From contig CAWIGG010000004.1 of assembly GCA_963835575.1 (NCBI GenBank), forward strand, positions 1,000,016 to 1,064,015: a stretch of DNA of 64,000 nt, in the 5' to 3' direction. Within the stretch, counting starts at the first letter, position 1. Every line of letters starts with the position of its first letter. The DNA is from an uncultured Spirochaetota bacterium. Its GTDB lineage: Bacteria; Spirochaetota; Brevinematia; Brevinematales; JAOACQ01. Positions 35,001 through 64,000 of the stretch are shown one piece after another. The notes under the pieces are model-generated. The model was not told where the DNA came from. It worked only from the letters and a program-made list of their open reading frames with translations, and did not search any database. A program made the position numbers and the translations under genes.

Positions 35001-38000
35001 ACAGCGCGGGAAGGATAACGGAAACGAGGGAGTATCCCGCGGACAATTATTCACAGGCGAGGAAAACGGATTATCAATATCACCAGAACGGAAGGCTGAA
35101 GCGCAAAGTATTGTATGATTTTTCCGGCCCGGCGCTGGAGGACACGTCCTATTCCTACGACTTCCGGGGGAACGTCATTAATAAAACGGACAACCTAAGG
35201 AATACCGCTTTTATAACTTTTTATAACGCCTACGGCGAGAAAACAGAGGAAAGCACACTCTGGAACGGAGAGTCATCGGACAGGCATTACAGCTATGACG
35301 CCGCCGGAAGACTTTATCAGACCACCGGCGAACTGGGCAGTGTGACGACTTATACATACGGGGATTTCGGGCAGACGGCGACGAAGGGGATATCGTACAG
35401 AGGAGACGTACAGCCGTACGTCTCTACGAGTTATTTTTATGATTCACGGGGAAATGTAATTACAGAAACCGTATATGGGATGACCCCCTCCGGCTCCCCC
35501 TCAGGCAAGGGGGAGAGCCGGCTATTGTCTTATACCACGAGCTATCAGTACGACGGGTGGGGGAACCGCACAAACACCGTATATCCCGACGGGAGTTTTG
35601 AAACATCCGAATATGACGGGTCCGGGCAGAAGATAAACGAGACCGACAGGTACGGATACCGGACGGCGTATGAATACGATGAGAACGGCAGGGAGACAAA
35701 ACGGACATCCGGCACGCCCAACGGGAACCTGATAACTGAGACAGTTTACGATAATTCCGGGCGGAAGATTTCAGAGACAAGCCATGGGGAAACGGGACCC
35801 TCAAGGACCGCGCAGTATCAATATGACAGTTCGGGAAGGCTGATCAATCAGCAGATTGGGGACGTGTCATCCTCGACAGGGTACGACGCCTTCGGGAATA
35901 AAACATGGACAACCACCCCCGGCCCCTCCTTAAATAAGGAGGGGAGCAGTACCTGGTATTACCAGTACGACGCGGCGGGAAGGACGACCGTCAGCATCGA
36001 CGGAGAGGGGAACAGGACGGAGACGAGCTACGGATTTGACGGCGATTGGAGGCTGACGGTAACTACCACCCCCAACCCCTCCTCAGGCAAGGAGGGGAGC
36101 CGGAAAATTATTTATGACGGGTTCGGGAATAAGATTGAGGATGTTGACGCGAACGGGAACAGCGAATATTACCAATATAACGCGGCCGGCAAGCCGACGG
36201 TATATACCGACAGGAACAGCAATCAGACTGTATATATTTATGACTCTCTGGGAAGACAGACCGCGACTGTCGACGCGAACGGGAGCGTATTGTCGAACGT
36301 GTACGACAGCTTTAATAATATAATTGAGGTCGTTGACAAGGAAGGGCGCCATCTTTACAGGGAATTCGACTGGGCGGGAAGGATGATATGGACGAAAGAC
36401 GCCTTAGGTAATGAGGCGAGATACGAATACACAACCACCCCCAAACCCCTCCTTGGCAAGGAGGGGAATCCGCTTGGGTATGAGGTTGAGGTCTTCACAG
36501 ACGCGGAGGGGAACAAAGCAACCACATATAAATACGGCAAGATGACGCTGGCTGTTCAGGACGCGCTAGGCAATATCACGAGCTATCAATACAACGCCTT
36601 CGGCGAATTAACGGCGACGGTCGACCCGAAGGGGAATACGACAAGTCTTACATATGACTTGCGGGGCAACAAAACAGGTGAAACAACGGCTTTAGGCTTC
36701 AGCACGACATATCAATATGACAATAACGGCAACGTGATAAATGAGATCAACGGCGAGGGCTGGATAAAAACGACATACAACAGGAACAACCAGCCAGTGA
36801 GAAAAGATTATAGCGATGGAAACACAAAAAACTTCCTCTACGATTCTTTGGGAAGGTTGACAAGAGCGCGGGACAATTTCAGCGACTATTCATATCTTTA
36901 TGATAATAATGGAAGCTTGACTAACAGGTATGATAATATCAATAAAGAGACGCTGGCGTATGAGTATGACGGGAACGGGAACCGCGTTAAAATGACTGCT
37001 CAAGATAAGATTGTAAATTATGATTATGACGCTTTAAATCAAATTAAGAAAGAAACGGTATTAACCACGAAGATCACGAAGGACACGAAGGAAGAAATTA
37101 ATGTGGCCTCCGGCTTCATAACGAACCTTTCAATTGATTACAGTTATTCTCCTATGGGGAGGGTCACGAATAAGACATATTCTTCGGGGCTGGTCGTCAA
37201 TTATGAATATGACCCTATTTACAGGCTGATGAAAATAAACAACACGACCAATGGATTGTTTTTATCATCGTTCGGGTATACATACGACAAAGTGGGGAAC
37301 AGGACAAAGGAAACGGCCCGCGAATCCACGCGAATAGGCACGAATGGGGATGGTTCGGCCTCCGGCGGGGAACGGGTGTCGGCGTTTCTTTATGATAAGG
37401 CGTACAGGCTTGTCAAGGCCGATTATAGTGAAGGTAAGTTCGAGGAATTCGAATACGACAATTCAGGTAACCGGCTAAGGAAGACTTCAAATTTAGACGG
37501 CTCTAATACCGTTACGACCGGCTATGTCATCGACAACGACAACAGACTCCTCTGCGAACAGAAGCCTTCCGGCAATATCAGCTTTATTTATGACCGCGCT
37601 GGACGGATTATCAAGAAAGTAGAAGGGGATAAAGTAGAACGCTATCAGTACAACCAGCGCGACTTGATGACGAAGTACACCGTCGAGCAGAACGGCAGTA
37701 TCACTTCCGTAAGTGAATACACCTACGACATCAACAACCTCCGCACCGTTAAGAAAGAAACCCCTGAGACGCCGGGAAGTGTCGGAGATAACACAACACG
37801 CTTTACCTATGACGGAGACAATATATTATATGAAGGCCCGTCTTTTTATTTGAATAACATCTTTATCAATAGTTACGAAGCGGAAATACAGCCGCTGAGG
37901 ACGGCGGTCTATGTAAAGGACGCGCTGGGAAGCGTGAGGGGCGAAATCTACGACAACCCGCTCCCGCCTGTAGAGTCTGGCGGCTCTGGAATCGCGCTGA

Positions 38001-39832
38001 AAGAATTTAATTATACCGCCTTCGGGGAAATGCTGGCTATAGGCGATCAGATTGCAATAGACAACGATGCTAAAAAAGGCATTTCTTATACTGGACATTA
38101 TTTTGATAAAGACACAAAATTATACTATGCCCGCGCCCGCTACTACGATCCGGGCATAGGGCGGTTTATTACAAGTGATCCGATTCAAGACCCATCGAAG
38201 AGATATGCTCCCGCCGGGCTGAACAGGTATGTTTACGGAGATAACTCGCCTCTGCGTTATATCGACCCTGAAGGCCAATTCGGGTTGGACGATCTCATAG
38301 CAGGAATCGTGGGCGGAATTATCGGAGCGATCAGTAATGTTATTGCTGATATAGCCAGCGGGGACTATAAGGACATTCTTCTTGATTCCATACTCGGCAG
38401 TACGGCTGGATTTATAAACGGCGTGGTGGAGCATTATGGAATACCGATGTATATATCGTTCAACACAAGGGGATTCGGCGCCGGAGTGGGCTACAACTTA
38501 GGCGGGGTTGTCAGCGTCGGCGCGGGAATTCATTCAGACTGGAGCGGACAGAATTACGGTTTCAGCGTAAACGCCGGACTTGGCGGTGTTGATAAGTACA
38601 AAGGCCTTAGTCTGGGATTCTCGGCGGGCATTGACTACGGCCCTGAAGGCCAGAAGAGCTACTTCGGGTTTAACGCCGGCGCAGGATCGATTAATTTCGG
38701 CGCTAACTGGAATTATGTTAACGGGCAATACGCCGGTTTCGGGGTTAACGGCGGTTTTGGCGGGGACATCGGTAAAGGTTATTCACTCGGACTTAACCTT
38801 GGAGCGAACTTTGACGCGAAGGGCAATTACTCAGGCGGCAGCGCAGGAATAAATATCGGGTATAATGAGAGGATTAAAGATTCAAAGGATTCAATGCAGT
38901 ATAACGGAAGTCTGGGCATAAATTTCAGCGCGGACGGAAAAGTAACTCCTTACGCTAATTTTACCGCGACGAGGTGTATTAATATTCAGAAGAATGCTGA
39001 AACGGGGAAGAAAGCCGGGAATAAGACGGCTAACGAAATTGAAATGGAGCGGCAGGGCTTGCAGCGGGATATGGCCGAGAGAATGAAAACAACTGTAATG
39101 AGTATGGAAGCCGGGATGGAAAGACCGGAAACGCCGGGAATGATGGTAATCGGCCAGAGTGTGAACGATGCCAATGACAACCAGACTGCGGGCGATGCGA
39201 TGACTGCCGGGAACGAGAAAGTGGCGGCGGCGAAAGCGGCGTATAATCAGGAAAAACAGCAGGCTATTCAGAACGGGACGCTGGGGCAATTCTATAAACG
39301 GGAAATGCTTGAAAATCTTACTTTTAACCAGGATACAGGATATTGGGTAACAACAATAGACGGGCAGACAATAAATATCGGCAGAACAAATATTGATTTA
39401 GATTTCAGCACAACCGCAACCTATACTTTAGATCAAAGTAAGGAACATATCTACACGGTTGTTTCAAATATGACTGATGATGCAATTATTGGGTTTGCCA
39501 ACTTCACAAACCATAATGAAGGCTTCGTTGTTACCAGCATGTGGCGAAATACTAATGATCCTCATGGTCATGGGACTGCTTTTGATATGGTATTCGGAAA
39601 TAACACACCTGTTTATGCGGCTGAAGGTGGTATAGTAACTACTGCTGGGAATTATGGAGGAGCCGGAATTATGATTACAATTAGCGGGACAGATAATTTA
39701 AAATACACTTATATGCACAACAATCAGCTATACTATAGTGTAAATGCAAATGTTGATGCTGGGAATAAAATTTCTTTATCGGGTGGTACGCCAAATTATG
39801 CGCCACATTTACATTTCCAAATTGGTAGATAA
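29024..39832 (+). CDS. RHS/YD-repeat polymorphic toxin with C-terminal M23-family peptidase tip
   Basis: 3602 aa. N-terminal signal peptide and a PG-binding-like segment (ENGFYNKETEAALEQF). Dozens of YD repeats (Y.YD..GN...). RHS core end YYARARYYDPGIGRFITSDP...GLNRYVYGDNSPLRYIDPEG at about 38.1-38.27 kb. Then a Gly-zipper/Gly-rich segment and a tip ending ...GHGTAFD...YMHNN...APHLHFQIGR (M23 metallopeptidase-like). Confidence 0.9.
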   Translation: MKSKSLAAALLLTCFLVLVYAGTKIALQINGKKVDIAAQNDSRNPYLYNTRLRDIQAKLNKVLSFNLTNYAPIEENGFYNKETEAALEQFREMYYKKYSLQRYYAFSAEDAVEPSSVEGLLDREIPAAADFAREYQEGMKLKNGDPAKYYGNSAWDEVLRIEKGMDGDTVDPVTGELSKTIPLYQTPAGNDHLMPIQLTARYGSQYSGNCGLGDNWYLTESYSLWFSYEKNEMIVQDGSGISQKFNFTNGGFSRDTNNNTDGGLFLNVMLDGALGTEGSTICVITARGETMIFECADNKGQDSVSNVIESISTNSLEVYGYCIVEDLRIYEVTNYTRDFMWSLKTNISVSNYGPTIKMGLYADSSNALDMTMTNSAYTNFSDWLNNGHQTVTGQKMICDKEEFKNKVWKLSDTSEGGWSVSYYAAPLATNAIEFVTNWIWGGAPLSNCTQSDTNFDMRVKVNTNIVYTQGTSYSFRRQPMGQAGIYAGYVLTNSMNRFGSVKSYSYDGFQKLLSINSYSPGGTEIDGVSITYSPAGEKGFIKVITTGLASSANGVITFSYTGNQPDHQLLDTAVVMMDGKADAHRMAYHSELLFGPGSPDGVKLSNSIFSNYSALTNSFTYITNEISFITSNIGELVQQNYVYFWEMYTNITETITHNGINTTTNISSSLFYDDKYYNNSKDYYDLLVQFMESQLPDLISNISSLTDQISNYNSGDLFPRLALLDSHIDSAGPWQEYRYGSFDTNMFGVTNRESAFRTTIVRKQGAECRLDYSGGYTEYHNFSGNTFKFHYDINQTNYDERHVDRIVYPDNSTVSFGYDKKGNITAVTNEINNAYSYGYDDFGNVTNKSMPGRNWYYEYNSVIGRYLGRPTKIVQPDHTVYTMAYDENGEMTNQTLKANDADQGKTLVQVFFSPLSANGFVKTNRDMYGSETVYTYDGSHSPVSVKNPDGGVTAYINDSFGKPLIENRSNLVTNICVYDSRGNIVEQGIAGLNHSFTEYDAAGRRLSSTDPMSNKTIYEYGAGNSLAGVIFPSGEEVRYSYDGDGNKTNEAYYAQSGFTIANKSIVYAYDPEYRLTNKALVQDGETFNYSFQYDAAGNMTLQTAESVLPDGNVPAGVSNSYAYDAISILTNQSDLISGKNISYYYDPMGRLTFENRTVTNGSGYGFSLSNTYDILGRNTASFSFTNGAAVIMTSNDYQDNDRVTVKIDRYGNQSVNYMDFRNNVTNLQYSVFNPLTEENELYTHSYIYDTLGNKTEEIYPDGTRQKWQFVFGNRLLKESGRYSDESAAAWKTYSRDAAGRVTAVNDFENKTWGKSYNSLGRLSSETDPDGRQIFYITDLWGNPMTVQQGSRRRDISYNILNKPVTVNYGDGAADSALYDAMGNVVQSMPGGASNLQTVSRYDNEGKKTYEAGFGLETYFAYDAQGNLIYKKAATAPSNHPQPLLNKEGSRTWTYAYDACGRITEEHLPDGTFISHDYAVSNGLLIETVSGPKRHNTSAADTTVNTYDQMDRLIRSQVCDDGLEAACDIGFFAGKGLISGKVFDRAGLPVKEVRPGNKIKNYKYSPEGRVTNEENEAGEVKSSVYDKNGNLTYMTDFDGNSFSNTYYNSGKLMKSLEPGNAVTSYYYDAYGNMNKKVLPDGSTWLFETDARGRTVKETNPFGGTAAFEYDALGRKMAETGPGGSYTAYDYDGNGIPTGIETQGNDGENAVKISAAVDGFGETNRVEYPTTPSPSSGKEGSQGLIVTYQYDNMGRVTNKTTTPNPLLNKEGSRTTRYKYREDGRLKRTDNPDGTAEMYAYSAAWLLTNRTVLGDTNKGDLPPKRVTAYYYGGYGDGDVRPYVSTGGFGDVECAVDYRGIVTASYYDKAGRLTNRSETAGTEPRNTITIYGLTNINNLFYRTMETWKEETHSRASLQMEWSKTVTDFRGNVLKVYRMEKGQELLTADNTYNAAGKLVSEVRQEDLGSPETRYEYGANGALSKKTEPSGLITEYSYDSAGRITETREYPADNYSQARKTDYQYHQNGRLKRKVLYDFSGPALEDTSYSYDFRGNVINKTDNLRNTAFITFYNAYGEKTEESTLWNGESSDRHYSYDAAGRLYQTTGELGSVTTYTYGDFGQTATKGISYRGDVQPYVSTSYFYDSRGNVITETVYGMTPSGSPSGKGESRLLSYTTSYQYDGWGNRTNTVYPDGSFETSEYDGSGQKINETDRYGYRTAYEYDENGRETKRTSGTPNGNLITETVYDNSGRKISETSHGETGPSRTAQYQYDSSGRLINQQIGDVSSSTGYDAFGNKTWTTTPGPSLNKEGSSTWYYQYDAAGRTTVSIDGEGNRTETSYGFDGDWRLTVTTTPNPSSGKEGSRKIIYDGFGNKIEDVDANGNSEYYQYNAAGKPTVYTDRNSNQTVYIYDSLGRQTATVDANGSVLSNVYDSFNNIIEVVDKEGRHLYREFDWAGRMIWTKDALGNEARYEYTTTPKPLLGKEGNPLGYEVEVFTDAEGNKATTYKYGKMTLAVQDALGNITSYQYNAFGELTATVDPKGNTTSLTYDLRGNKTGETTALGFSTTYQYDNNGNVINEINGEGWIKTTYNRNNQPVRKDYSDGNTKNFLYDSLGRLTRARDNFSDYSYLYDNNGSLTNRYDNINKETLAYEYDGNGNRVKMTAQDKIVNYDYDALNQIKKETVLTTKITKDTKEEINVASGFITNLSIDYSYSPMGRVTNKTYSSGLVVNYEYDPIYRLMKINNTTNGLFLSSFGYTYDKVGNRTKETARESTRIGTNGDGSASGGERVSAFLYDKAYRLVKADYSEGKFEEFEYDNSGNRLRKTSNLDGSNTVTTGYVIDNDNRLLCEQKPSGNISFIYDRAGRIIKKVEGDKVERYQYNQRDLMTKYTVEQNGSITSVSEYTYDINNLRTVKKETPETPGSVGDNTTRFTYDGDNILYEGPSFYLNNIFINSYEAEIQPLRTAVYVKDALGSVRGEIYDNPLPPVESGGSGIALKEFNYTAFGEMLAIGDQIAIDNDAKKGISYTGHYFDKDTKLYYARARYYDPGIGRFITSDPIQDPSKRYAPAGLNRYVYGDNSPLRYIDPEGQFGLDDLIAGIVGGIIGAISNVIADIASGDYKDILLDSILGSTAGFINGVVEHYGIPMYISFNTRGFGAGVGYNLGGVVSVGAGIHSDWSGQNYGFSVNAGLGGVDKYKGLSLGFSAGIDYGPEGQKSYFGFNAGAGSINFGANWNYVNGQYAGFGVNGGFGGDIGKGYSLGLNLGANFDAKGNYSGGSAGINIGYNERIKDSKDSMQYNGSLGINFSADGKVTPYANFTATRCINIQKNAETGKKAGNKTANEIEMERQGLQRDMAERMKTTVMSMEAGMERPETPGMMVIGQSVNDANDNQTAGDAMTAGNEKVAAAKAAYNQEKQQAIQNGTLGQFYKREMLENLTFNQDTGYWVTTIDGQTINIGRTNIDLDFSTTATYTLDQSKEHIYTVVSNMTDDAIIGFANFTNHNEGFVVTSMWRNTNDPHGHGTAFDMVFGNNTPVYAAEGGIVTTAGNYGGAGIMITISGTDNLKYTYMHNNQLYYSVNANVDAGNKISLSGGTPNYAPHLHFQIGR
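33336..33369 (+). repeat. CCCCTCCT/AGGAGGGG hairpin element in frame inside rhs (encodes NHPQPLLNKEGS)
   Basis: ACCACCCCCAGCCCCTCCTtaataAGGAGGGGAG. Confidence 0.85.
34205..34239 (+). repeat. CCCCTCCT/AGGAGGGG hairpin element in frame inside rhs (TTPSPSSGKEGS)
   Basis: ACCACCCCCAGCCCCTCCTcaggcaAGGAGGGGAG. Confidence 0.85.
34298..34332 (+). repeat. CCCCTCCT/AGGAGGGG hairpin element in frame inside rhs (TTPNPLLNKEGS)
   Basis: ACCACCCCCAACCCCCTCCTtaataAGGAGGGGAG. Confidence 0.85.
34524..34548 (+). repeat. GAGACG...CGTCTC hairpin element in frame inside rhs (GDVRPYVST)
   Basis: GAGACGTAC-ggcc-GTACGTCTC-TAC. Confidence 0.85.
34739..34763 (+). repeat. GAGACG...CGTCTC hairpin element in frame inside rhs (ETHSRASLQ)
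   Basis: GAGACGCAC-agcc-GTGCGTCTC-TAC. The stem carries a compensatory T/C : A/G change relative to the other copies. Confidence 0.85.
35403..35427 (+). repeat. GAGACG...CGTCTC hairpin element in frame inside rhs (GDVQPYVST)
   Basis: GAGACGTAC-agcc-GTACGTCTC-TAC. Confidence 0.85.
35482..35515 (+). repeat. Variant C-rich/G-rich hairpin in frame inside rhs (TPSGSPSGKGES)
   Basis: GACCCCCTCCGGCTCCCCCtcaggcaaGGGGGAG. Same loop as the 34205 and 36065 copies, with an altered stem. Confidence 0.7.
35912..35946 (+). repeat. CCCCTCCT/AGGAGGGG hairpin element in frame inside rhs (TTPGPSLNKEGS)
   Basis: ACCACCCCCGGCCCCTCCTtaaataAGGAGGGGAG. Confidence 0.85.
36065..36099 (+). repeat. CCCCTCCT/AGGAGGGG hairpin element in frame inside rhs (TTPNPSSGKEGS)
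   Basis: ACCACCCCCAACCCCTCCTcaggcaAGGAGGGGAG. Confidence 0.85.
36434..36468 (+). repeat. CCCCTCCT/AGGAGGGG hairpin element in frame inside rhs (TTPKPLLGKEGN)
   Basis: ACCACCCCCAAACCCCTCCTtggcaAGGAGGGGAA. Confidence 0.85.
37066..37092 (+). repeat. (CACGAAG-like)x3 tandem repeat in frame inside rhs (TKITKDTKE)
   Basis: CACGAAGATCACGAAGGACACGAAGGA; same motif as the intergenic block at 11608. Confidence 0.8.
37319..37345 (+). repeat. (CGCGAAT-like)x3 repeat in frame inside rhs (ARESTRIGTN)
   Basis: CGCGAATCCACGCGAATAGGCACGAAT; same motif as the intergenic block at 11651. It is conserved at the equivalent position of both tip cassettes (about 48.13 kb minus strand; 61821 plus strand). Confidence 0.8.
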
Positions 39833-39848
39833 TGGGAGGATACCTTTA

Positions 39849-40613
39849 ATGAAACACTTTCTAATTTTTTGCCTGATTTTTATTTTTGCCGAATTGTACA
39901 GCCAAGTCAAGTTAAATGTGGTAGCAAAGACAGGTTTGTTTTTGAGAGATAAAGCAGATAAAAATGGAAAGATATTAACTCAAGTTCCCTATGGTTCTTC
40001 TGTGGATGTAATCAAAAAAGACAGAAAATTTACATTTGATAATATTAATGGTAATTGGGTATTTGTTGAGTACAACAAATTAAAAGGTTATATTTTTAGT
40101 GGTTATTTGTCTGACTTGCCTGCACCAATCATAAATAGTAGCATTAAGGACTATTTTATAAAGCAGATAAAAGTTGAAAAAGTTATTAGCTCCAACTTTA
40201 TTATTTACAATGAAACCAATCATTATACGAATGCCAGTTATGTAACCGTGCTTTTTGGATATGATATTGTCCAAGATTATGTGGATGCGGGAATTAAAGA
40301 AGGAGAATACGAAGCGGGATTGTATTATAGCACATATTTGTTCAAAAAAAGAAAAATAGAGGAAGTTTTTGTTGTCTTAAAAGCTCTGGGGTTTTGTAAA
40401 TACATTGACTATTTTCCAATAAGTACAATTAATTTTCCTCAAAAAGATAAAGAAAGGTATTTAATTGATAAAATTCAAGTGAAGCGTAAAAGTAATAGGA
40501 TTGAAGAAATCAAGGTAATTGATTATCCCATGTCAGGTCATAGAGTTATCCAAACTTTAAAGGTTACAAACAATAATGATGTGGTGTATATTTGGGACGA
40601 GTATGGAGATTAG
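39849..40613 (+). CDS. putative cognate immunity protein, secreted, SH3-like domain
   Basis: I start it at ATG 39849 (MKHFLIFCLIFIFAELYSQ, a signal peptide) with GGGAGGA 8 nt upstream. The ORF-track extension to 39744 overlaps the toxin. The segment GLFLRDKADKNGKILTQVPYGSSVDVI...NWVFVEYNKLKGYIFSGYL resembles bacterial SH3. Its position right after the toxin tip supports the call. Confidence 0.7.
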   Translation: MKHFLIFCLIFIFAELYSQVKLNVVAKTGLFLRDKADKNGKILTQVPYGSSVDVIKKDRKFTFDNINGNWVFVEYNKLKGYIFSGYLSDLPAPIINSSIKDYFIKQIKVEKVISSNFIIYNETNHYTNASYVTVLFGYDIVQDYVDAGIKEGEYEAGLYYSTYLFKKRKIEEVFVVLKALGFCKYIDYFPISTINFPQKDKERYLIDKIQVKRKSNRIEEIKVIDYPMSGHRVIQTLKVTNNNDVVYIWDEYGD

Positions 40614-40625
40614 GAAAAACAAAAG

Positions 40626-40659
40626 ATTGAAAGCCCGTAGTGGCTACTTTCAATTTTTC
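40626..40659 (+). terminator. Hairpin plus T-tract after the immunity gene
   Basis: ATTGAAAG-cccgtagtggcta-CTTTCAAT followed by TTTTCA. The loop has internal CC/GG pairing. Confidence 0.55.
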
Positions 40660-40910
40660 AAGTAAGAAATTATAAATGAAAGGGGAAATAAAGTAAAAAA
40701 GAGCGGCAGAAAGGAGAGCAAGCGGAGGGGGTTAAGCCGGTTTCCGGACGGGAATCGGTAAAACCGGATGCTTCAGGTCGCAGGCTGGACGGAGCCGGTT
40801 GATAAGACAGACTGAAGTAAAACGGATGAAGAAGCACGAAGCGATCCGGCGGTTTATGAAGGATTATTTTGACATCCGGGTGAAGGATTGAGATTATTAA
40901 AGACAGATAG

Positions 40911-41165: not shown

Positions 41166-42092
41166 ATGAAAAAAAGAAACATGAAATACCTTAGACCCAG
41201 TATCAATATCATTACCTCAATGCTGACTCTATTATCCATGGTTTACTTACTTTTTGTAGGATTTGGAATTAAAATAATTGAAAACGACACAGAAGGGATA
41301 ATTGCTATCGTTGCAGGTTTTATAGTTTCTATCAGTTTCATTTACTGGCTATTTTTTGTTTTAATTCTTAATTTAATTCAATTTACAATCAACATTTTTA
41401 ATTCTAAAAGTATATCAGAAGAAACTGCTAATATTCATGACGCCGCTCTTAATGGAGATTTAGAAACTGTTAATAGATTAATAAAAAATGGAACTGCTGT
41501 AAATGCCACAAACGATAAAGGGTTTACTCCTCTTACTATGGCAGCCTTTAATGGACATATTAATATAGTAAAAGCCTTGTTAAATGCAAAAGCCGACATT
41601 AATGCAAAAAATAAGAAAGGGGTAACTTCACTAATGGGTGCAACTTATAAAGGCCATTCTTATATTGCGTGGACTTTACTATCAGCCGGAGCTGATGTGA
41701 ACAAAAAGTCTGAAGTGGGAACAACTGCTTTAATAGGATCGGCAGATAAAGGAAATTATGAAATAATGAGGATTCTTCTAAATGCCGGAGCAGACCCAAA
41801 TGAGAGCGATAATAACGGTCTTACAGCTTTGATGATTGCAGGTTCATACGGATATACCGATATTGTAAAAATATTAATCGAAAAAGGAGCTAATGTAAAT
41901 GCCTATGATGCTGGTGGAGCAACTCCTTTGATGGGGCCATCAGCAAATGGACATGCTGAAATAGTTAAACTTCTCTTGGAAGCAGGAGCTAAAAATGACT
42001 ACAAAACTATCGACGGATTAACTGCGCTACAACTTGCAAAAAGTAACAAACACTTTGATATAGTTGATCTCCTGAAAAATTCTAGGAGTTAA
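41166..42092 (+). CDS. membrane-anchored ankyrin-repeat protein
   Basis: Two to three N-terminal hydrophobic helices, then about 6-7 ANK repeats (e.g. GFTPLTMAAFNGHINIVKALLNAKADINAKN, GLTALMIAGSYGYTDIVKILIEKGANVNA). Confidence 0.85.
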   Translation: MKKRNMKYLRPSINIITSMLTLLSMVYLLFVGFGIKIIENDTEGIIAIVAGFIVSISFIYWLFFVLILNLIQFTINIFNSKSISEETANIHDAALNGDLETVNRLIKNGTAVNATNDKGFTPLTMAAFNGHINIVKALLNAKADINAKNKKGVTSLMGATYKGHSYIAWTLLSAGADVNKKSEVGTTALIGSADKGNYEIMRILLNAGADPNESDNNGLTALMIAGSYGYTDIVKILIEKGANVNAYDAGGATPLMGPSANGHAEIVKLLLEAGAKNDYKTIDGLTALQLAKSNKHFDIVDLLKNSRS

Positions 42093-42188
42093 TTCTTTGG
42101 AGTTTAAATATTCAATGTTAAATAACTTTACATGGCAATAACAATCTTTTTAAAACCATTTGTTTCTATGGGGAATATTAGCGAAATT

Positions 42189-42938
42189 TTATTTAATAAA
42201 CACAGCAAAGGGAAAATAGTAATTTCTTCTTCCTTTGATTAATTCTGGTGTTTGTCTTCCAGATGTTTCTGATATAACTTTTCTATTAGCTAAATCAAAA
42301 GCATCAACTATATCAATAACTCTATAACCATCTTGTGAAAGATCATAATTATCAATATTCATTTCTGAGATTAAGCTACTTGAGAAATATCCGCCTTTTG
42401 AATCTTCCCCTGCACTTTCGTCAATGCGGCATGAATTGATTTGAATTAATCCAGTTTCACAATGTTCAAGATATTTTTCAAAATAATAGCGGGAATAAGT
42501 TGAATCCTGAGACCTACGTTCGCTAAATGACAATTTATATGAATCTTGGATGATTTCCTTAAGTTTTGTTCTACAGCAATCCAATATTAACAATTGTTTT
42601 TTTGCTCCTTTAGTTAATTCTTTATAATCAATATTTTCATTTTGATTTAATTCTAGCATTGTTGTATTTCTTGATTCCGAAAACCAACCATGTCCACAAA
42701 AAACTATAAACGCATAATCTGCTGTAGATTGTATATTAGCTATTGTGCTGATGACTTGATTTTGAGATGGTTTTACTTTTGCAATAATTTCACTAGAATT
42801 CCAAGCGCCACCTATTGGGGATTTTAAAAAAGATTCATAATTTTTAATATCAGCAAAAACACCCGGACAATAATTTTTTGCATTTTCTTCACCAGGATTG
42901 CCAATTAGTAAAGCATATTTTTTAATACTCATTATCAA
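42189..42938 (-). CDS. caspase-like (peptidase C14 / CHAT-type fold) protease
   Basis: 249 aa. ALLIGN at the N-terminus, catalytic His context FIVFCGHGWF and catalytic Cys context QLLILDCCRTK, with spacing as in caspase/metacaspase p20 domains. Last gene of a three-gene minus-strand operon. Confidence 0.7.
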   Translation of the reverse strand: MIMSIKKYALLIGNPGEENAKNYCPGVFADIKNYESFLKSPIGGAWNSSEIIAKVKPSQNQVISTIANIQSTADYAFIVFCGHGWFSESRNTTMLELNQNENIDYKELTKGAKKQLLILDCCRTKLKEIIQDSYKLSFSERRSQDSTYSRYYFEKYLEHCETGLIQINSCRIDESAGEDSKGGYFSSSLISEMNIDNYDLSQDGYRVIDIVDAFDLANRKVISETSGRQTPELIKGRRNYYFPFAVFIK

Positions 42939-42951
42939 CCTCCAACTAATT

Positions 42952-56233: not shown

Positions 56234-56244
56234 GGGAGGACAGC

Positions 56245-59127: not shown

Positions 59128-59248
59128 AACTGCGAGCGCTCACACTTTTGAGCTTCAAACCTTTGTAAAATAAGGCTTGAATCGAGTGTGAGCGGTAGGA
59201 GCGGGGGGAGAGGCAGAGCCAAAATATTTTGAAAGGAGGTATTACCGT

Positions 59249-60565
59249 ATGATTGATAAAGACGCCGTACTGAAAGAGTACATTACACACGCGAAGGCTT
59301 TTAAGCCGTTAAAGGAAAATGTCTTGAAGCATAAGGCCCTTTACGCACGGAAGCTTCTGGAATATCTTGAGAAGAACAATATGCCGCTTTCCGGCTTCAC
59401 AAGGGAACAGTCGGATAAATATCTCGCCATGATTAAACACGGGACCGGGGAGTGGAGTTCCCATAAACCCAATAAAACCGGGTACTTTAAGACCCGCGAG
59501 TTTGTCCGGTTCCTCGAATGGAAGAACTTTATTCCGGGAGCTTCAAGAGATTCCGTTTCCCCGAACGCAATTCCCTTTACGGAACTTCTCGAAAGATATA
59601 TCCGCCGTATCTCCTCGTCAAAGGAAGTTTCCGAACGCACCCTTGATATTACCCGCTCGCTCATCCGGCGCTTTCTGGAATACCTTGAAAATAATAATAT
59701 AACGGACATCGCGCGGGTAGATAAAAAAGTTGTTTCCGGCTATGCCCTTTATCTCCTCGTTTACAAAGGAAGCCGGGGAAAGAGCAAAATACAAAAGCCT
59801 TACAACGTTACCACCCGCGCGAATATCCTTGTGAATGTCCGCAACTTCTTCAAGTTCCTCTGCTCCGAAAATATCATCCTTACAGACCCTTCAAAATCCG
59901 TGGAAATCCCAAAAGTCCCGAAGCGGATATCCCGCGATATCCCCACCCTCGCCGAAATCGACCGCCTTATAAGCTCTATCGAAATGAAAAGCCACAGGGG
60001 CGTGCCTTACGGCTCCCGCGACATCGCCATCATTGAAACGCTCTACGGCTCGGCAATCCGGGTCAAAGAACTGGTTAACCTCGATATCGGGAACGTCGAT
60101 TTTACCGAAAAACTTATCACCGTTTACAAAGGCAAGAATAAAAAAGACCGCGCTGTCCCGATCAATGACATCGCCCTTTCCCGCATCCGGGATTACCTGA
60201 AAGAACGCCCGGAAGGCACGCCTCATAACCCGGATGAAGAGGTGCACCTCAAAGCCCTCTTTCTCTCCGTTTTCAAAAAGCGGATGACAGTTAACCTCAT
60301 CGGAAGCCTGATAAAAAAATACGCCCTTAAGGCCGGGATCAAAAAACACCTCATCCCTCATTCCTTCCGCTATGCATGCGCAACCCACATGCTTAAAAAC
60401 GGCGCGGACATCCGCTATATTCAGGAAATGCTGGGGCACACAAGCCTCGACACGACGGAAACCTACACAAGAGTGGTAAAAGGAGACCTTAAACGCATGC
60501 TCCGGGCATTCCATCCAAGAGAGATAATATCTCAAGAGAACACGCAGGAGGAAAATCATGAATAA
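59249..60565 (+). CDS. tyrosine recombinase 438 aa, right copy
   Basis: Translation identical to 49403..50719. Confidence 0.88.
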   Translation: MIDKDAVLKEYITHAKAFKPLKENVLKHKALYARKLLEYLEKNNMPLSGFTREQSDKYLAMIKHGTGEWSSHKPNKTGYFKTREFVRFLEWKNFIPGASRDSVSPNAIPFTELLERYIRRISSSKEVSERTLDITRSLIRRFLEYLENNNITDIARVDKKVVSGYALYLLVYKGSRGKSKIQKPYNVTTRANILVNVRNFFKFLCSENIILTDPSKSVEIPKVPKRISRDIPTLAEIDRLISSIEMKSHRGVPYGSRDIAIIETLYGSAIRVKELVNLDIGNVDFTEKLITVYKGKNKKDRAVPINDIALSRIRDYLKERPEGTPHNPDEEVHLKALFLSVFKKRMTVNLIGSLIKKYALKAGIKKHLIPHSFRYACATHMLKNGADIRYIQEMLGHTSLDTTETYTRVVKGDLKRMLRAFHPREIISQENTQEENHE

Positions 60566-61535
60566 ATCCATTTACATCGCAAGGGAAAAGTTCATCGAAC
60601 ACCTCAGAAAAAGGAACTTGAGCGGGGCCACAATCTTGAGGTTTGACACTTTCTTCAATCACCTTTTCCCGTTCCTCGAATCTTTGGGGTGCACCCCTTC
60701 CGTCCGGGACGTTACGGACATTAAAACAGAACATATTGAGAAATTCATCCTTTCCCTCAAAAACCACCGCAAGAAAAACGGAAAGCCCTTCAGCGACAGC
60801 TACCGCAGGACTGAGACAAGTTTCCTCCGCCTCTGGCTTTCCTTCCTTGAAAATAATGATATGATCTTCATAAACCCCGCCCGCAATATTCCGCTGGAAC
60901 GCGTTGAACGCCCGTTTCCTAAAGACATCCTTTCCGTCGAGGAAATGAAGCTCCTGCTCCGACAGCCGAATATAAAACATCCGGTCGGGCTTCGCAACAG
61001 GGCCATCCTTGAAATATTCTACGGAAGCGGAATCCGAAGCGCGGAACTTTGTTCCCTTAAACTCAACGACCTCGACCTTGAAGGCCCCTACCTTTTCATC
61101 AAGGGCAAAGGTTCTAAAGACCGGGTTGTACCCATCACAAAACAGGCCAAAAGGTTCCTCAAGCTGTATCTTGATAAAGTCCGGCCTCTCTATTGCAATA
61201 ATGCGGCTAACGAAAATGTGTTTTTCACCGTCGGACGAGACAGCCTTGTCCCCGGAACTTTCCGCGCCGCATTGCATAACTACGTCCTGAAATCGGGGAT
61301 TAAAAAGAGGGTTTCCACTCATACCCTGCGCCATACCTGCGCCACCCATTTAATCGCCAACGGGGCAAGCATCCGCTATGTTCAGGAACTTTTAGGACAT
61401 GCCTTCCTCAGCACCACTCAGATTTATTCCCGCGTCATGCCCGTTGATCTGCGGAAGGTTTATGAAAAAACGCATCCCCGCTGTACCGGTATGCTCGTCA
61501 ATGACGGTGATGAGGCGCGTCCCGAAAACAATTAA
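60558..61535 (+). CDS. tyrosine recombinase 325 aa, right copy
   Basis: Translation identical to 48433..49410. Confidence 0.88.
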   Translation: MNKSIYIAREKFIEHLRKRNLSGATILRFDTFFNHLFPFLESLGCTPSVRDVTDIKTEHIEKFILSLKNHRKKNGKPFSDSYRRTETSFLRLWLSFLENNDMIFINPARNIPLERVERPFPKDILSVEEMKLLLRQPNIKHPVGLRNRAILEIFYGSGIRSAELCSLKLNDLDLEGPYLFIKGKGSKDRVVPITKQAKRFLKLYLDKVRPLYCNNAANENVFFTVGRDSLVPGTFRAALHNYVLKSGIKKRVSTHTLRHTCATHLIANGASIRYVQELLGHAFLSTTQIYSRVMPVDLRKVYEKTHPRCTGMLVNDGDEARPENN

Positions 61536-61581
61536 ATCTTTTCTTGCCTTTTTCAAATCAGTTTGATAAACTATTTCCGGC

Positions 61582-61619
61582 GGGGGGAATGAGGCTTAAT
61601 CTCATTCCTCCCGTTTTTT
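61582..61619 (+). terminator. Terminator after the 325-aa recombinase gene (right copy)
   Basis: GGGGGGAATGAG-gcttaat-CTCATTCCTCCC, then GTTTTTTG. Confidence 0.65.
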
Positions 61620-61778
61620 GCGGTTATAGCTCTCAGGCTATGGTTTGCCGGCTTTTCCCAGGGACGCGGGCTTGAGTGCGCGGGTCTTAAAAAGCGGGAG
61701 TACCACCGGCCAATAATTAATAATTTTTCCGGCAGCCCTGAATTGTTTTCTTAACGCGCATGGGGGAGAGAAAAAGAA

Positions 61779-64000
61779 TATTCATACGATAAAGTGGGGA
61801 ACAGGACGAAGGAGACGGCCCGCGAATCCACGCGAATAGGCACGAATGGAAACGGAGGGAATGAGGGCACCTCCGGCGGGGAACGGGTTTCGACGTTCCT
61901 TTATGACAAGGCGTACAGGCTGGTTAAGGCTGACTATAGCGAAAGCAAGTACGAGGAATTTTCTTACGATAATTCAGGGAACAGGCTGAAAAAAACTTCG
62001 AATTTAGACGGTTCGAATACTGTTATTACCGCCTACGTTTATGATAACGACAACCGCTTACTTTGCGAACAGAAGCCATCCGGTAATATTTCCTATATTT
62101 ATGACAAAGCCGGAAGGATTGTCAAAAAAACCGATGGGGACAAGACAGAACGTTACACCTACGACCAGAGGGATTTATTAAAGAAATTTACAGTAGAACA
62201 AAATGGGAACATAGTTTCTGTTTTAGACTACACCTATGACATTAATAATTTGCGCACCGTCAAGAAAGAAACACCGGAGACACCCGGAAGTATGGGTAAT
62301 TCTGAAATAAAATTTGTCTATGACGGGAATGATATCCTCTTTGAAGGCGGGACTTTCCATCTGACGAAGGTTGATCAGCGAAGCGGATATGAAGCCGAAA
62401 TCCAGCCTTTAAGGATAGCCGTCCACATAAAGGACGCTAACGGAAGTATCAGGGGTGAATTGTACGATGCTCCAATAACCATTGAGACAAAAACGTTTTC
62501 ATATCAGACATTCAATTTTACCGCCTTCGGCGAGCAGATGAAACTCGGCGACGAGAGCGAGGGCGAAAAGGACGGCTTAAGTTTTAAAGGCCATTACTTT
62601 GACCATAGCTCCGGCCTTTACTATGCCGTCGCGCGTTTTTACAATCCCGATACTGGACGCTTTATTTCCCCCGATCCTATCAGCGATCCTTCAAAACGCT
62701 ATTCGCCAGCCGGTTTAAACCGGTATGTCTATGGCATCAACAATCCTTTAAAATATTCCGATCCCGACGGTCAATGGGCCTTCTTCGATGACATTGCCGC
62801 GTTAATAATCGGCGCGGTAGTAGGTGCTATAAACAACATAATAACCGATATAACGAGTGGCGACTGGAAGGATATACTGGCCGATTCCATCCTTGGATCG
62901 GTAAGCGGTGCGGTGAACTTCGAGCTTCAGCATAACGCCATACCGGTTTATATAGGACTCTCGACAAGAGGCTATAGTGCCGGGGTTGGTTTCGGGTTAG
63001 GCGGCGGCGCGTTCAATGTCGGGGCGGGCTTCCATTCCGACTGGAACGGCCAGAATTACGGATTCAGCGCCAGTGCGGGTGTGGGAATGCCCGGAGGGGC
63101 TGGATTCGGGGTCTCCATCGGGGCGGACTACAGCCGGGAGAATGGATGGACAAGCAATATCGGGGCGAACGTAAGCCTCGGAATGACAAAGAATAGCACG
63201 CTGAATCTCGGCGCAAGCCTGAATTTCGACAGCGAGGGAGTGGCCGGAGGCGGCTTCACATTCGGAATGAGCGAGAGGGGAGCGGCGGACGCAAAAACCG
63301 GGGCTTATGATGTAATGGGAGCGACGGCGGGTATAAACACAGACAGATATGGAAGAGCGAGCGAAAGCCTCGGCCTGACGTACGGCCATAACGAGCTGAC
63401 GAAGGACAGCAACGGCAAATACACCAAAGATTATATGAGTTACAATTACGGGTACGGGATAAACGTCAGCGCGAACGGGAAGGTAACGCCATACGGGAAT
63501 TATTCGGCTTCGCTGTATATGGCAAAGCAGGATAATGCCGAGACGAAGAAAATGACTGACACCGGGGCGATGAAGAAGAAAGCGGATGAAGCGAAAAATC
63601 CATACGATCAATATACCTCGATGTATGGAAAGACCGAAATGACTTCCGAGCAGATCAATTTATTAAACGACTACCAGAGACAGGTTCAAGCGGTTCAGCA
63701 TGAAGTAAACAGCCAGCTTGTTCAGGAACAAGAGAATCAAAAAATTCAGGGCAAGCAGTTTGCGCAAGATATTTATGGCGGGATATTGAGAGAGAATGAA
63801 CAGGAATTACAAGCGGGGAATTCATATAAAGATCAAATGACGCATTTTACGGATGATGGCGAGGAGTATGTCAGCGTAGTTATAAAAGGGGTGAAGTTAA
63901 GTTTCGCGAAAGCGGAATTTTATATTCCAGATGACCCTAACAGTACGGAAATTACCGGTCTTGTAGATGGACGCACATGCACAAATATTTATTACGCCAT
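61779..64000 (+). CDS. orphan rhs tip cassette 3 (direct orientation), open to the window end, with a different C-terminal tip
   Basis: Hand translation in the frame starting at 61779. It reads YSYDKVGNRTKETARESTRIGTNG...YDNSGNRLKKTSNLDGSN...RFYNPDTGRFISPDPISDPSKRYSPAGLNRYVYGINNPLKYSDPDGQW, then a Gly-rich segment and a tip unlike the M23 tip (...QLVQEQENQKIQGKQFAQDIYGG...). An in-frame stop lies at 61752 and there is no ATG, so it has no start of its own. It is missing from the ORF track because no stop occurs before 64000. Confidence 0.8.

What the first reader, a model, noticed from the sequence alone, without database searches (positions are those of the whole stretch)
37270..64000. rhs tip cassettes sit in inverted and direct orientation around recombinase genes: possible toxin-tip switching by DNA rearrangement
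The full-length rhs (29024..39832, plus strand) shares its segment from codons Y-T-Y-D-K-V-G-N-R-T-K-E (about 37279) onward with two promoterless tip cassettes. One cassette lies on the minus strand (48174 down to 45629). The other lies on the plus strand (61779 to beyond 64000). Both keep the RHS core end (..RYYD..GRF.S.DP..GLNRYVYG..DP.G). Cassette 3 then carries a tip unrelated to the M23 tip of the main gene. Recombination between a main rhs gene and a direct orphan is an established route to swap toxins by deletion. Here one cassette is inverted, so exchange with the main gene would instead invert about 10 kb and keep all the DNA. Two pairs of tyrosine recombinase genes lie exactly between the cassettes. 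This layout resembles shufflons and hsdS inversion switches, applied to an rhs toxin. I am not aware of that being described, but the link is inference only.
Basis: partly seen in the sequence, partly recalled or inferred. Interest (0 to 1): 0.8.

Follow-up and report, generated by a model that had tools for sequence, protein, structure and literature searches.

The report
Plasmid-like element that swaps rhs tips
The recombinase genes between the rhs toxin cassettes belong to a widespread, apparently undescribed family of small plasmid-like elements that insert into rhs toxin genes, attach their own toxin tip and leave the old tip behind as a silent orphan; a dedicated inversion switch is the less likely reading.

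Summary
The full-length rhs (29024-39832) shares its 3' part from 37277 with an inverted cassette (48189 down to 45629) and a direct cassette (61779 onward). A 59-nt core occurs exactly three times. Two recombinase pairs lie between the cassettes.

- Each recombinase pair sits in a 5,961-nt arm (SLOG protein, DnaG-type primase, two XerC/D-like recombinases). The two arms form a palindrome with one mismatch around a toxin-antitoxin centre.
- Cassette 1 is frame-broken. Its last 1,906 nt (toxin end plus SH3 gene) are identical to the main gene, so inversion would not change the toxin.
- Cassette 3 is intact, silent and carries a different tip.

Related loci point to integration rather than inversion. 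The primase-recombinase module is followed on the same strand by an rhs 3' fragment in 25 of 64 unselected loci, and in none on the opposite strand. A circular 6.9-kb contig, a free Lonsdalea plasmid and tandem arrays in Spirochaetota MAGs exist. Ralstonia strain IBSBF1503 is the empty site for the Po82 insertion, with a single reciprocal crossover.

Best reading: 37277-61779 is an integrated tip-carrying element and cassette 3 is the displaced tip. That the recombinases catalyse this is inferred.

The parts
29024..39832 (+). Full-length rhs gene (3602 aa) ending in an M23 peptidase tip. The part from 37277 on is read as element-derived.
   Evidence: ORF list. Pfam RHS_repeat x12, DUF6531, Peptidase_M23 at aa 3520-3600.
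37289..37347 (+). S1: conserved 59-nt core at the point where homology with the cassettes begins (37277). Proposed left junction (attL).
   Evidence: 0-1 mismatch in the 36-nt centre in all three copies.
38964..40869 (+). Perfect inverted-repeat arm: last 290 codons of the M23 tip, the SH3 gene and 256 nt beyond it.
   Evidence: No mismatch to 44592-46497. The two SH3 proteins are identical.
39744..40613 (+). SH3-domain protein (289 aa), putative immunity partner of the M23 tip.
   Evidence: Pfam SH3_3. The M23-tip plus SH3-gene pairing recurs in L003 and L176.
41174..44297 (.). U2: unique low-GC cargo between the tip arms. Contains an ankyrin protein (41166-42092 +), a caspase-like C14 peptidase (42189-42938 -), and 148-aa and 269-aa unknowns (-).
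   Evidence: Pfam. GC 27% against about 50% in the flanks. Inverted-repeat limits.
44848..45717 (-). Second, identical copy of the SH3 gene.
45629..48189 (-). Cassette 1: inverted rhs 3' cassette. It is frame-broken (stop at 47080, second ORF from 47083). Identity to the main gene is a mosaic: 95-91% over the first 180 nt, about 60-70% in the middle, 100% over the last 1.9 kb.
48119..48177 (-). S2: the conserved core in inverted orientation, abutting the left arm.
48349..48391 (-). Terminator-like hairpin with U-run between the last recombinase gene and S2. It is the mirror of 61577-61619.
   Evidence: The fold was done on the right-arm copy. The arms are identical here.
48187..54147 (-). Left arm: recombinase 325 aa (48433-49410), recombinase 438 aa (49403-50719), DnaG-type primase/replicase 960 aa (50841-53723), YAcAr/SLOG 121 aa (53735-54100).
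   Evidence: Pfam and NCBIfam. One mismatch to the right arm. Catalytic R-K-HxxR-H-Y kept.
54148..55820 (+). U1: unique centre. Contains a Gp49/HigB-like toxin (54549-54929), an HTH antitoxin (54874-55176), and four copies of a 58-nt hairpin repeat (54285, 54365, 55397, 55535) that may be an origin or priming signal.
   Evidence: Hairpin dG -28.8, z -6.3.
55821..61781 (+). Right arm: YAcAr (55868-56233), primase (56245-59127), recombinase 438 aa (59249-60565), recombinase 325 aa (60558-61535), terminator hairpin 61577-61619.
61791..61849 (+). S3: the conserved core in direct orientation to S1. Proposed right junction (attR).
61779..64000 (+). Cassette 3: intact, silent rhs 3' cassette (881 aa in all, runs past the window) with a different tip. 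Read as the displaced former tip.

Best explanation
Window 37277-61779 (24.5 kb) is an integrated copy of a plasmid-like mobile element.

The family:
- It encodes a DnaG-type primase/replicase and one or two XerC/D-like tyrosine recombinases.
- It usually also encodes a toxin-antitoxin pair, an HTH repressor and sometimes ParA.
- Directly downstream of the recombinase gene(s) it carries a start-less 3' fragment of an rhs gene with a toxin tip and its immunity gene.

Proposed mechanism:
1. One reciprocal crossover occurs between the 5' end of that fragment and the matching sequence of a resident rhs gene. Here that is the S core at 37289-37347.
2. The crossover inserts the whole circle.
3. The resident rhs now reads through into the element's tip (here M23, with the SH3 gene).
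4. The former tip (cassette 3) ends up behind the recombinase genes, cut off from promoter and start codon. It becomes a silent orphan that still carries its immunity gene.
5. Excision between the direct S1 and S3 would restore it.

In this lineage the element is built as a long inverted repeat, like the yeast 2-micron plasmid. Two copies of [SLOG - primase - recombinase - recombinase - S - rhs fragment - tip - SH3 gene] face away from a centre with hairpin repeats and a toxin-antitoxin pair (U1), and converge on a low-GC cargo (U2). Cassette 1 is simply the second arm's cassette. Flipping across S1/S2 or across the perfect repeats can occur but does not change the toxin.

Shown:
- the anatomy;
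- the conserved, strand-specific synteny;
- flanking direct repeats;
- a circular form and a free plasmid;
- an empty site with a single crossover in Ralstonia.

Inferred:
- the recombinases, rather than RecA, make the crossover;
- S is their site;
- the window's element exists as a 24.5-kb inverted-repeat circle and replicates.
For: Evidence within the window lineage:
1. Two contigs from another sample, with recombinases 90% identical, have the same palindrome (recombinase-recombinase-primase-SLOG, then TA, then the mirror image). Their central TA genes differ. The S core sits at the outer ends, followed by an rhs-M23 cassette and an SH3 gene.

Evidence from more distant elements:
2. Elements with 42-48% identical recombinases carry ParA-primase-recombinase-recombinase followed at once by an rhs 3' fragment. 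In one contig two such 16-kb units lie in tandem and are 95-99% identical, so they are separate copies.
3. Loci were picked by recombinase similarity alone. Of 64 with at least 600 nt downstream, 25 have an RHS core end on the same strand within 2.5 kb, and none on the opposite strand. The primase lies directly upstream in 51 of the 80 loci by tblastn.
4. In at least 10 diverse loci the remnant starts at the same motif (..LYY..RYYDPxxGRF) and is preceded by stops.
5. L093 is a 7.4-kb insertion flanked by a direct repeat. The first 42 nt of the repeat match almost perfectly, apart from a 1-nt indel and one mismatch.
6. L164 has a 123-nt terminal overlap, so it reads as a 6,917-bp circle. In it the rhs fragment is preceded by element sequence, which is the attP configuration.

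Evidence from named organisms:
7. In a Spirochaetota MAG a full-length rhs is followed by tip, ankyrin gene, HTH, ParA, primase and two recombinases.
8. The Lonsdalea populi 11.3-kb circular plasmid holds two units. Each is [core-end remnant + nuclease tip + immunity - SymE - HTH - primase], and the second continues with XerC and RelE/DinJ.
9. The Ralstonia solanacearum Po82 megaplasmid has rhs - primase - recombinase - orphan. Strain IBSBF1503 is collinear at 99.5-99.8% but lacks the 8.9-kb insert, and its rhs carries the tip that is the orphan in Po82. There are 44 informative sites in the 1.08-kb duplicated rhs segment. They switch once, in a 68-nt interval lying roughly 125-190 nt from the 5' edge of the element-borne fragment.

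Evidence on the window's own parts:
10. Both recombinases keep all catalytic residues.
11. The cassettes are insulated by a terminator, an in-frame stop and the lack of a start codon.
Against: - No reads were available, so no excised circle, empty site or isomer of this particular locus was seen.
- No full-length rhs with a cassette-3-like end exists in the protein database; the best match is 59% identical.
- The S core is absent from the genome and metagenome DNA collections.
- The single crossover in Ralstonia and the high-identity S block are also what RecA-mediated Campbell insertion would give. Nothing here separates the two enzymatically.
- I found no dyad symmetry typical of Xer-type core sites in S.
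- A 22-nt part of S is also kept in an orphan rhs copy that is not next to recombinases.
- In L171/L178 I found no repeat between the rhs and the DNA behind the recombinases.
- In several tandem units the cassette holds only a toxin domain and no RHS sequence.
- In Ralstonia the orphan starts 1.7 kb after the recombinase gene, not right behind it.
- The 1.5-kb stretch of only about 60-70% identity between the main gene and cassette 1 is unexplained by a simple inverted-repeat replicon. It lies inside otherwise near-identical arms and needs an extra recombination event.
Confidence: 0.6

Rival explanations
1. Campbell-type insertion by homologous recombination only. The element is a small plasmid that happens to carry an rhs 3' fragment. 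RecA crosses it into the resident rhs. The Xer-like recombinases serve plasmid multimer resolution or other plasmid functions, not insertion.
For: - The family has plasmid hallmarks: primase/replicase, ParA and TA genes, a free circular plasmid in Lonsdalea and a circular contig.
- In Ralstonia the element carries 1.08 kb of 95%-identical rhs sequence, ample for RecA, and shows one reciprocal crossover.
- Toxin swapping by homologous recombination with orphans is established (PMC3967940).
- S has no obvious Xer-like dyad.
Against: - The recombinase gene(s) sit immediately upstream of the rhs fragment, on the same strand, in lineages whose recombinases are only 30-50% identical. That is the usual place of attP next to int and is not needed for multimer resolution.
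- Many elements keep only about 45 codons of rhs homology, starting at one fixed motif. That is poor substrate for RecA.
- The Ralstonia crossover lies in the first fifth of the homology.
- In the window the best-conserved block is at the very 5' edge of every cassette.
Confidence: 0.2
2. One reading: a dedicated inversion switch (shufflon- or hsdS-like). The recombinases invert DNA between S1 and S2 to exchange the expressed rhs end while keeping all DNA.
For: - S1 and S2 are inverted copies of the same highly conserved core.
- An intact recombinase pair sits right next to S2. This is the topology of the Mu G segment and of R64 (my knowledge).
- The palindromic module with outward-facing S cores recurs in two other contigs.
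Against: - Cassette 1 ends in the same toxin and the same SH3 gene as the main gene, base for base. It is also frame-broken. The switch would offer no second toxin, at most an off state.
- Cassette 3, the only different tip, is in direct orientation and can be reached only by deletion or excision.
- Most relatives have a single module in direct orientation, tandem arrays or a circle. No relative shows a set of alternative inverted tips.
- A primase, TA genes and ParA have no role in an inversion switch.
Confidence: 0.12
3. Chance neighbourhood or assembly artefact. An unrelated mobile element landed in an rhs orphan array, or the palindromes are fold-back misassemblies.
For: - rhs loci are known hot spots for insertions.
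- Perfect 6-kb inverted repeats can arise from chimeric long reads.
Against: - The association is strand-specific: 25 of 64 loci on the same strand against 0 of 64 on the opposite strand.
- The arms end exactly at the rhs homology.
- The arms enclose a unique 1.67-kb centre and differ at one base.
- The same architecture, with different sequence and different TA genes, occurs in independent contigs.
- The second palindrome has diverged stretches.
Confidence: 0.05

Closest known systems
Rhs (and T6SS effector) orphan cassettes and sequential displacement: Koskiniemi et al. 2014, PMC3967940; Kirchberger et al. 2017, PMC5361080
   Same: - A full-length gene is followed by a start-less orphan 3' cassette with its own immunity gene.
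- The cassette shares core sequence with the main gene.
- A new tip displaces the old one downstream.
- Deletion between direct repeats re-fuses the orphan.
   Different: Those cases are explained by homologous recombination, with no dedicated vehicle. Here the incoming tip rides on a self-contained replicon that has its own primase and tyrosine recombinase(s), and the junction sits next to the recombinase genes.
Small integrative elements with integrase plus primase/replicase that rebuild the 3' end of their target gene: P4-like satellites, PICI-type islands, tycheposons (recalled from my own knowledge)
   Same: - A tyrosine recombinase lies next to the attachment site.
- A primase-type replicase and a repressor are present.
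- The element is flanked by direct repeats that duplicate the 3' end of the target gene.
- Circular and integrated forms exist.
   Different: - The target is a protein-coding toxin gene, not a tRNA gene.
- The duplicated 3' end is deliberately different from the one it replaces, so insertion changes the product.
- There are often two recombinases in tandem.
- This lineage has a long inverted-repeat build.
R64 shufflon (Rci/sfx) and the Mu G / P1 C invertible segments (recalled from my own knowledge)
   Same: - A constant 5' part of a gene could be joined to alternative 3' parts.
- Conserved short sites lie in inverted orientation inside coding sequence.
- The recombinase gene is adjacent.
   Different: - There is only one inverted cassette, with the same toxin, and it is broken.
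- Gin and Cin are serine recombinases.
- Those systems have no primase, TA or ParA genes.
- Relatives of this locus are insertions and tandem arrays, not multi-segment inversion clusters.
rAID-1 recombinase-associated orphan immunity arrays of Bacteroidales: Ross et al., bioRxiv 10.1101/471110
   Same: A XerD-like tyrosine recombinase heads an array of acquired toxin-immunity related genes, and active gene capture is suspected.
   Different: - rAID-1 arrays hold immunity genes with integron-like intergenic repeats and are defined within Bacteroidales.
- They have no primase and no fusion to a resident rhs gene.
- They have no rhs fragment directly behind the recombinase.
Rhs-associated integrase-like genes noted in bee-gut Snodgrassella and Gilliamella: Steele et al. 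2017, PMC5727410
   Same: Integrase genes recur next to Rhs loci. The authors suggest they might help capture Rhs sequences.
   Different: That paper proposed no element structure, site or mechanism, and I did not test relatedness to the family found here.
Yeast 2-micron plasmid (FLP/FRT) (recalled from my own knowledge)
   Same: A circle inferred to be divided by two long inverted repeats into two unique segments, with a tyrosine recombinase whose sites lie in the repeats and a replication origin in one unique segment.
   Different: The circular form of the window's element was not observed. Here the repeats are 6-10 kb and contain the recombinase genes themselves. Any role of flipping in copy-number control is speculation.

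Membership tests
Shufflon-type / Mu-G-type inversion switch | Conserved short recombination sites in inverted orientation that bound the invertible DNA inside a coding region | tested here: met
   S1 (37289 +) and S2 (48177 -) are inverted copies of one 59-nt core.
Shufflon-type / Mu-G-type inversion switch | Alternative, functional and different 3' gene segments at the two ends of the invertible DNA | tested here: not met
   Cassette 1 has the identical toxin end and SH3 gene and is frame-broken.
Shufflon-type / Mu-G-type inversion switch | Both orientations present in a population | not testable with these tools
   No reads are available. No sibling-strain contigs were found.
Shufflon-type / Mu-G-type inversion switch | Recombinase of the matching class: Rci-type tyrosine for shufflons, Gin/Cin serine for Mu and P1 | tested here: inconclusive
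   Both proteins are XerC/D-like tyrosine recombinases, so the Gin/Cin class is excluded. Specific relatedness to Rci was not tested.
Rhs main gene plus orphan cassette (displacement and recombination model) | Orphan in direct orientation, without start codon, sharing core sequence with the main gene and ending in a different tip | tested here: met
   Cassette 3: direct, stop 7 codons upstream, no start codon, intact 881 aa, different end.
Rhs main gene plus orphan cassette (displacement and recombination model) | Orphan followed by its own immunity gene | not testable with these tools
   The cassette runs past the end of the window.
Integrative mobile element with tyrosine recombinase (site-specific insertion) | Element bounded by direct repeats of the target sequence | tested here: met
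   S1 and S3 are direct and 94% identical over 71 nt. The same is seen in L093 and in Ralstonia Po82.
Integrative mobile element with tyrosine recombinase (site-specific insertion) | Recombinase gene adjacent to one junction | tested here: met
   The 325-aa recombinase gene ends 243 nt before the rhs homology that begins at 61779 (S3 core from 61791). The adjacency is conserved in relatives.
Integrative mobile element with tyrosine recombinase (site-specific insertion) | Occupied and empty sites in related genomes | tested here: met
   Met for a family member, not for the window itself. Ralstonia Po82 is occupied and IBSBF1503 is empty, with a single crossover. No empty allele of the window's rhs was found.
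Integrative mobile element with tyrosine recombinase (site-specific insertion) | Circular excised or episomal form | tested here: met
   Met for family members only: L164 with a 123-nt terminal overlap in attP configuration, and the free circular Lonsdalea plasmid. Not seen for the window's element.
Integrative mobile element with tyrosine recombinase (site-specific insertion) | Crossover made by the element's recombinase at a defined core site | not testable with these tools
   This needs an enzymatic or genetic assay. The sequence data fit both the recombinase and RecA.
rAID-1 (Ross et al.) | 5' XerD-like recombinase more than 44% identical to BF9343_RS08045, followed by at least 2 co-directional low-GC genes, with repetitive integron-like intergenic sequences | not tested
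   The reference protein is not at hand. The architecture differs: a primase is present, an rhs fragment follows the recombinase, and no repeated intergenic motif was seen (criteria as quoted).
2-micron-like inverted-repeat plasmid | Two long inverted repeats that split the replicon into two unique segments, with recombinase target sites in the repeats | tested here: inconclusive
   The integrated copy has the predicted order S - tip arm - U2 - tip arm' - S' - module' - U1 - module - S. The circle itself was not observed, and the arms contain a diverged 1.5-kb stretch.

The most novel reading that the evidence does not exclude
The recombinase pair acts on all three S cores. The locus would then be a combined system:
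- Insertion and excision choose between the element's tip and the resident tip.
- Inversion between S1 and S2 toggles the expressed gene onto the broken cassette, an off state, or onto a second tip in other members.
- Flipping of the inverted repeats around the origin-like centre drives 2-micron-style amplification of the excised circle.

More broadly, elements of this family would be the main generators of the rhs orphan arrays seen across bacteria.
Probability: 0.15. Interest if true: 0.85.

Novelty: new variant of a known kind. Interest (0 to 1): 0.72.

Why it matters
How new toxin tips reach polymorphic toxin genes, and why silent orphan cassettes pile up behind them, has been explained mainly by homologous recombination with DNA of unknown origin.

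A self-replicating, self-inserting carrier would supply both the vehicle and the mechanism. It brings a tip plus immunity gene and plugs it in-frame into the conserved part of a resident rhs gene. It would also turn the orphan array into a readable record of past insertions.

The family is found in uncultured Spirochaetota, in many metagenomes, and in cultured Ralstonia solanacearum and Lonsdalea populi, so the idea can be tested at the bench. I found no description of it in the paper library. Only general remarks exist on integrases near Rhs loci (PMC5727410) and on recombinase-associated immunity arrays (10.1101/471110). That library lacks most subscription journals, so prior description cannot be excluded.

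Tried and rejected
Searches that found nothing:
- A degenerate pattern for the S core found nothing in genome contigs or metagenome contigs.
- Exact-protein look-ups of the window's recombinase, SH3 protein and Gp49 toxin found no other contig, so no sibling strain or isomer could be compared.
- A single-protein scan of genome contigs with the 438-aa recombinase gave only remote hits.
- The protein search with cassette 3 found no full-length rhs with that end, so there is no empty-site allele for this organism.
- I looked for a repeat between the rhs of L171 and the DNA behind its recombinases and found none.

Results that did not resolve a question:
- RpoB was used to place the organism. The best matches are only 50-59% identical and spread over Bacillota, Spirochaetota, Cyanobacteria and Actinomycetota, so the phylum stays open. 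Related elements do come from Spirochaetota MAGs.
- The consensus terminator scan did not list the hairpin behind the recombinase gene. Direct folding showed it. My first fold missed its 5' half.
- Folding of S itself shows no special structure (z +0.3).

Ideas considered and rejected:
- L007/L006 as a concatemer artefact of one circle. Rejected because the two units differ by 1-5%.
- The arm end upstream of S as a decayed rhs relic. It remains only a possibility, with weak similarity.
- Histories that build the palindrome from two convergent rhs genes or from inversion between two inserted elements. None reproduces the order module' - U1 - module.
- A 'first ORF downstream' tally, abandoned as too noisy in high-GC loci.

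Full report
**What is in the window**

The rhs gene at 29024-39832 encodes 3602 aa with RHS repeats and an M23 peptidase end. From 37277 onward its sequence recurs twice. One copy is on the minus strand from 48189 down. The other is on the plus strand from 61779.

A 59-nt core at the start of each copy occurs exactly three times in the window, with none expected by chance. Across the pairwise comparisons the three copies are about 93-97% alike over the first 71 nt. The rhs sequence behind them falls to about 60-80%. I call these cores S1 (37289, +), S2 (48177, -) and S3 (61791, +).

**The DNA between the cassettes is a palindrome**

- Positions 48187-54147 and 55821-61781 are inverted copies that differ at one base (50465). 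They end exactly where rhs homology starts.
- Each arm encodes four proteins, read outward. These are a YAcAr/SLOG protein, a 960-aa DnaG-type primase with a long C-terminal extension, and two overlapping XerC/D-like tyrosine recombinases of 438 and 325 aa. The recombinases are 34% identical to each other and keep the full R-K-HxxR-H-Y set.
- A strong hairpin followed by a U-run lies between the last recombinase gene and S. The cassette frame has a stop 7 codons before S and no start codon. The cassettes are therefore silent.
- The 1.67-kb centre (U1) holds a Gp49/HigB-like toxin with an HTH antitoxin. It also holds four copies of a 58-nt hairpin repeat.

**A second palindrome lies to the left**

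- The last 290 codons of the main tip, the SH3-domain gene behind it and 256 nt more (38964-40869) are repeated without a single mismatch at 44592-46497.
- Between these repeats lies a 27%-GC segment (U2). It carries an ankyrin protein, a caspase-like peptidase and two unknown proteins.
- Cassette 1 is therefore a mosaic relative to the main gene. It is 95-91% identical over the first 180 nt, about 60-70% through the shell end, core end and pre-toxin region, and identical in the toxin end. It is also frame-broken.
- Cassette 3 is an intact 881-aa frame. Its end has no Pfam match and departs from the main gene after '..GKVTPY.NYSA'.

**Related loci**

*Close relatives.* The nearest relatives of the 438-aa recombinase (90% identity) lie on two contigs of another metagenome. 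Both show the same palindrome of modules around a toxin-antitoxin centre, and one has different TA genes. The S core sits at the outer ends, and on one side an rhs-M23 cassette, an SH3 gene and a further orphan follow. The palindrome is thus a real, inherited build and not a misassembly.

*Relatives at 42-48% identity.* These have ParA - primase - recombinase - recombinase followed at once by an rhs 3' fragment. In one contig two such 16-kb units lie in tandem and differ by 1-5%.

*An unselected metagenome sample.* A scan with an alignment of the recombinases returned 80 loci chosen without regard to rhs.
- The primase lies directly upstream of the recombinase in 51 of these 80 loci by tblastn.
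- With an RHS core-end profile built from the hits, 25 of 64 loci with enough downstream sequence carry an RHS core end on the same strand within 2.5 kb. None carries one on the opposite strand. This is a lower bound, because several further loci show RHS-like text.
- In at least ten diverse loci the remnant begins at the same motif..LYY..RYYDPxxGRF, and is preceded by stop codons.
- L093 is a 7.4-kb insertion flanked by a direct repeat whose first 42 nt match almost perfectly, apart from a 1-nt indel and one mismatch. Its content is an rhs end with a ParB_N-like tip, a small gene, an HTH repressor, a replicase and two recombinases.
- L164 has a 123-nt terminal overlap. Read as a 6,917-bp circle, it places element sequence, not rhs sequence, in front of the rhs fragment. 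That is the configuration expected of the free form.

**Named organisms**

- *Spirochaetota.* One relative lies in a MAG of uncultured Spirochaetota. There a full-length rhs is followed by its tip, an ankyrin gene, an HTH gene, ParA, primase and two recombinases. A second MAG has tandem arrays of such units, some with only an M23 toxin and an SH3 gene as cassette.
- *Lonsdalea.* The primase has full-length homologues on plasmids and megaplasmids of cultured bacteria. The 11.3-kb circular plasmid of Lonsdalea populi N-5-1 holds two units. Each is [last about 30 codons of an RHS core + nuclease tip + immunity gene - SymE - HTH - primase], and the second continues with XerC and RelE/DinJ.
- *Ralstonia.* On the R. 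solanacearum Po82 megaplasmid a full-length rhs is followed by primase, recombinase and an orphan rhs fragment. Strain IBSBF1503 is collinear on both sides at 99.5-99.8% but lacks the 8.9-kb insert and has no primase or recombinase. Its single rhs carries the tip that is the orphan in Po82.
- *The crossover in Ralstonia.* In the 1.08-kb segment duplicated in Po82, the first 14 informative sites match the upstream copy and the remaining 30 match the downstream copy. This means one reciprocal crossover in a 68-nt interval lying roughly 125-190 nt from the 5' edge of the element-borne fragment. It is direct comparative evidence that insertion of such an element replaces the tip and orphans the old one.

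**Reading of the window**

The segment between the direct cores S1 and S3 (24.5 kb) is one inserted element. Its order is:

S - tip - SH3 gene - U2 - SH3 gene' - tip' - S' - module' - U1 - module - S

This is what insertion through one of two inverted S sites would give, if the circle consists of two long inverted arms separated by U1 and U2. The M23 tip now expressed came with the element. Cassette 3 is the resident tip it displaced. Cassette 1 is the other arm's copy.

The one feature this does not explain is the diverged 1.5 kb in the middle of the arms. That needs an additional exchange with another rhs allele.

**What stays inferred**

- *The enzyme.* The adjacency and orientation of the recombinase genes point to site-specific recombination. 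So do the fixed start of very short rhs remnants and the position of the crossover near the edge of the fragment. RecA-mediated Campbell insertion fits the sequence data almost as well (rival, 0.2).
- *Inversion.* Inversion between S1 and S2 is possible but cannot change the toxin here (rival, 0.12).
- *Literature.* Searches found the homologous-recombination model for orphans, the rAID-1 arrays and a remark on Rhs-associated integrases. They found no description of this element family.

**Verdict**

The best explanation is a tip-carrying integrative plasmid-like element (confidence 0.6). It is a new variant of known kinds: integrative elements that rebuild the 3' end of their target gene, and rhs orphan displacement.

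Noticed in passing
window 33332-33376, 34202-34246, 34295-34339, 35909-35953, 36062-36106, 36431-36475, and intergenic 28493-28537: A 45-nt element with a perfect hairpin (CCCCTCCTT..AAGGAGGGG) occurs six times in frame inside the rhs gene. Each copy encodes about 'TTTP.P(L/S)(L/S)(N/G)KEGS' between YD repeats. It occurs once more just after the stop of the upstream ORF. It looks like a small palindromic repeat element tolerated in coding sequence, as Rickettsia palindromic elements are.
   Followed up: partly
window 27012-27533: Three tandem copies of a 174-nt unit (84-88% identical) overlap several short ORFs just upstream of the rhs locus. Meaning unknown.
   Followed up: no
window 54285-54342, 54365-54422, 55397-55454, 55535-55592: Four direct copies of a 58-nt repeat flank the toxin-antitoxin genes in the centre of the palindrome. 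Each folds into an 18-bp hairpin (dG -28.8, z -6.3). They are candidates for an origin or primase loading signal.
   Followed up: partly
window 41166-44256: The cargo between the two tip copies has only 27% GC. It encodes an ankyrin-repeat protein, a caspase-like C14 peptidase, a 148-aa protein and a 269-aa protein without family. Ankyrin genes also follow rhs tips in the relatives L007 and L171.
   Followed up: partly
window 13924-15390 and 15876-25403: A DDE transposase gene lies downstream of rpoC, about 2.3 kb past its end. It is followed by a 3175-aa protein with a subtilase domain and many Ig-like domains. Together with the rhs gene this makes two giant surface or secreted proteins in 25 kb.
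   Followed up: no
window 28606-29034: A DUF559 / restriction-endonuclease-like gene (142 aa) overlaps the start of the rhs gene by 11 nt.
   Followed up: no
L181 (Lonsdalea populi N-5-1 plasmid NZ_CP072857.1), 2576-4528: The plasmid holds a second, truncated primase copy that is not annotated in the record. The plasmid therefore looks like two fused units of the element.
   Followed up: partly
L170 (ERZ25039512 contig_29797, 2.74 Mb), 10001-13315: An 1104-aa rhs fragment related to cassette 3 (54% identity over 45% of the query) sits among several IS elements, with no primase or recombinase nearby. Not every orphan in these organisms is tied to the element.
   Followed up: no
L003 16060-20100: An orphan rhs fragment spans the S-equivalent position but keeps only 22 nt of the core (GGGAACcGGACAAAGGAAACGG). 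This may mark the minimal conserved part of S, or simply a conserved YD-repeat codon run.
   Followed up: partly
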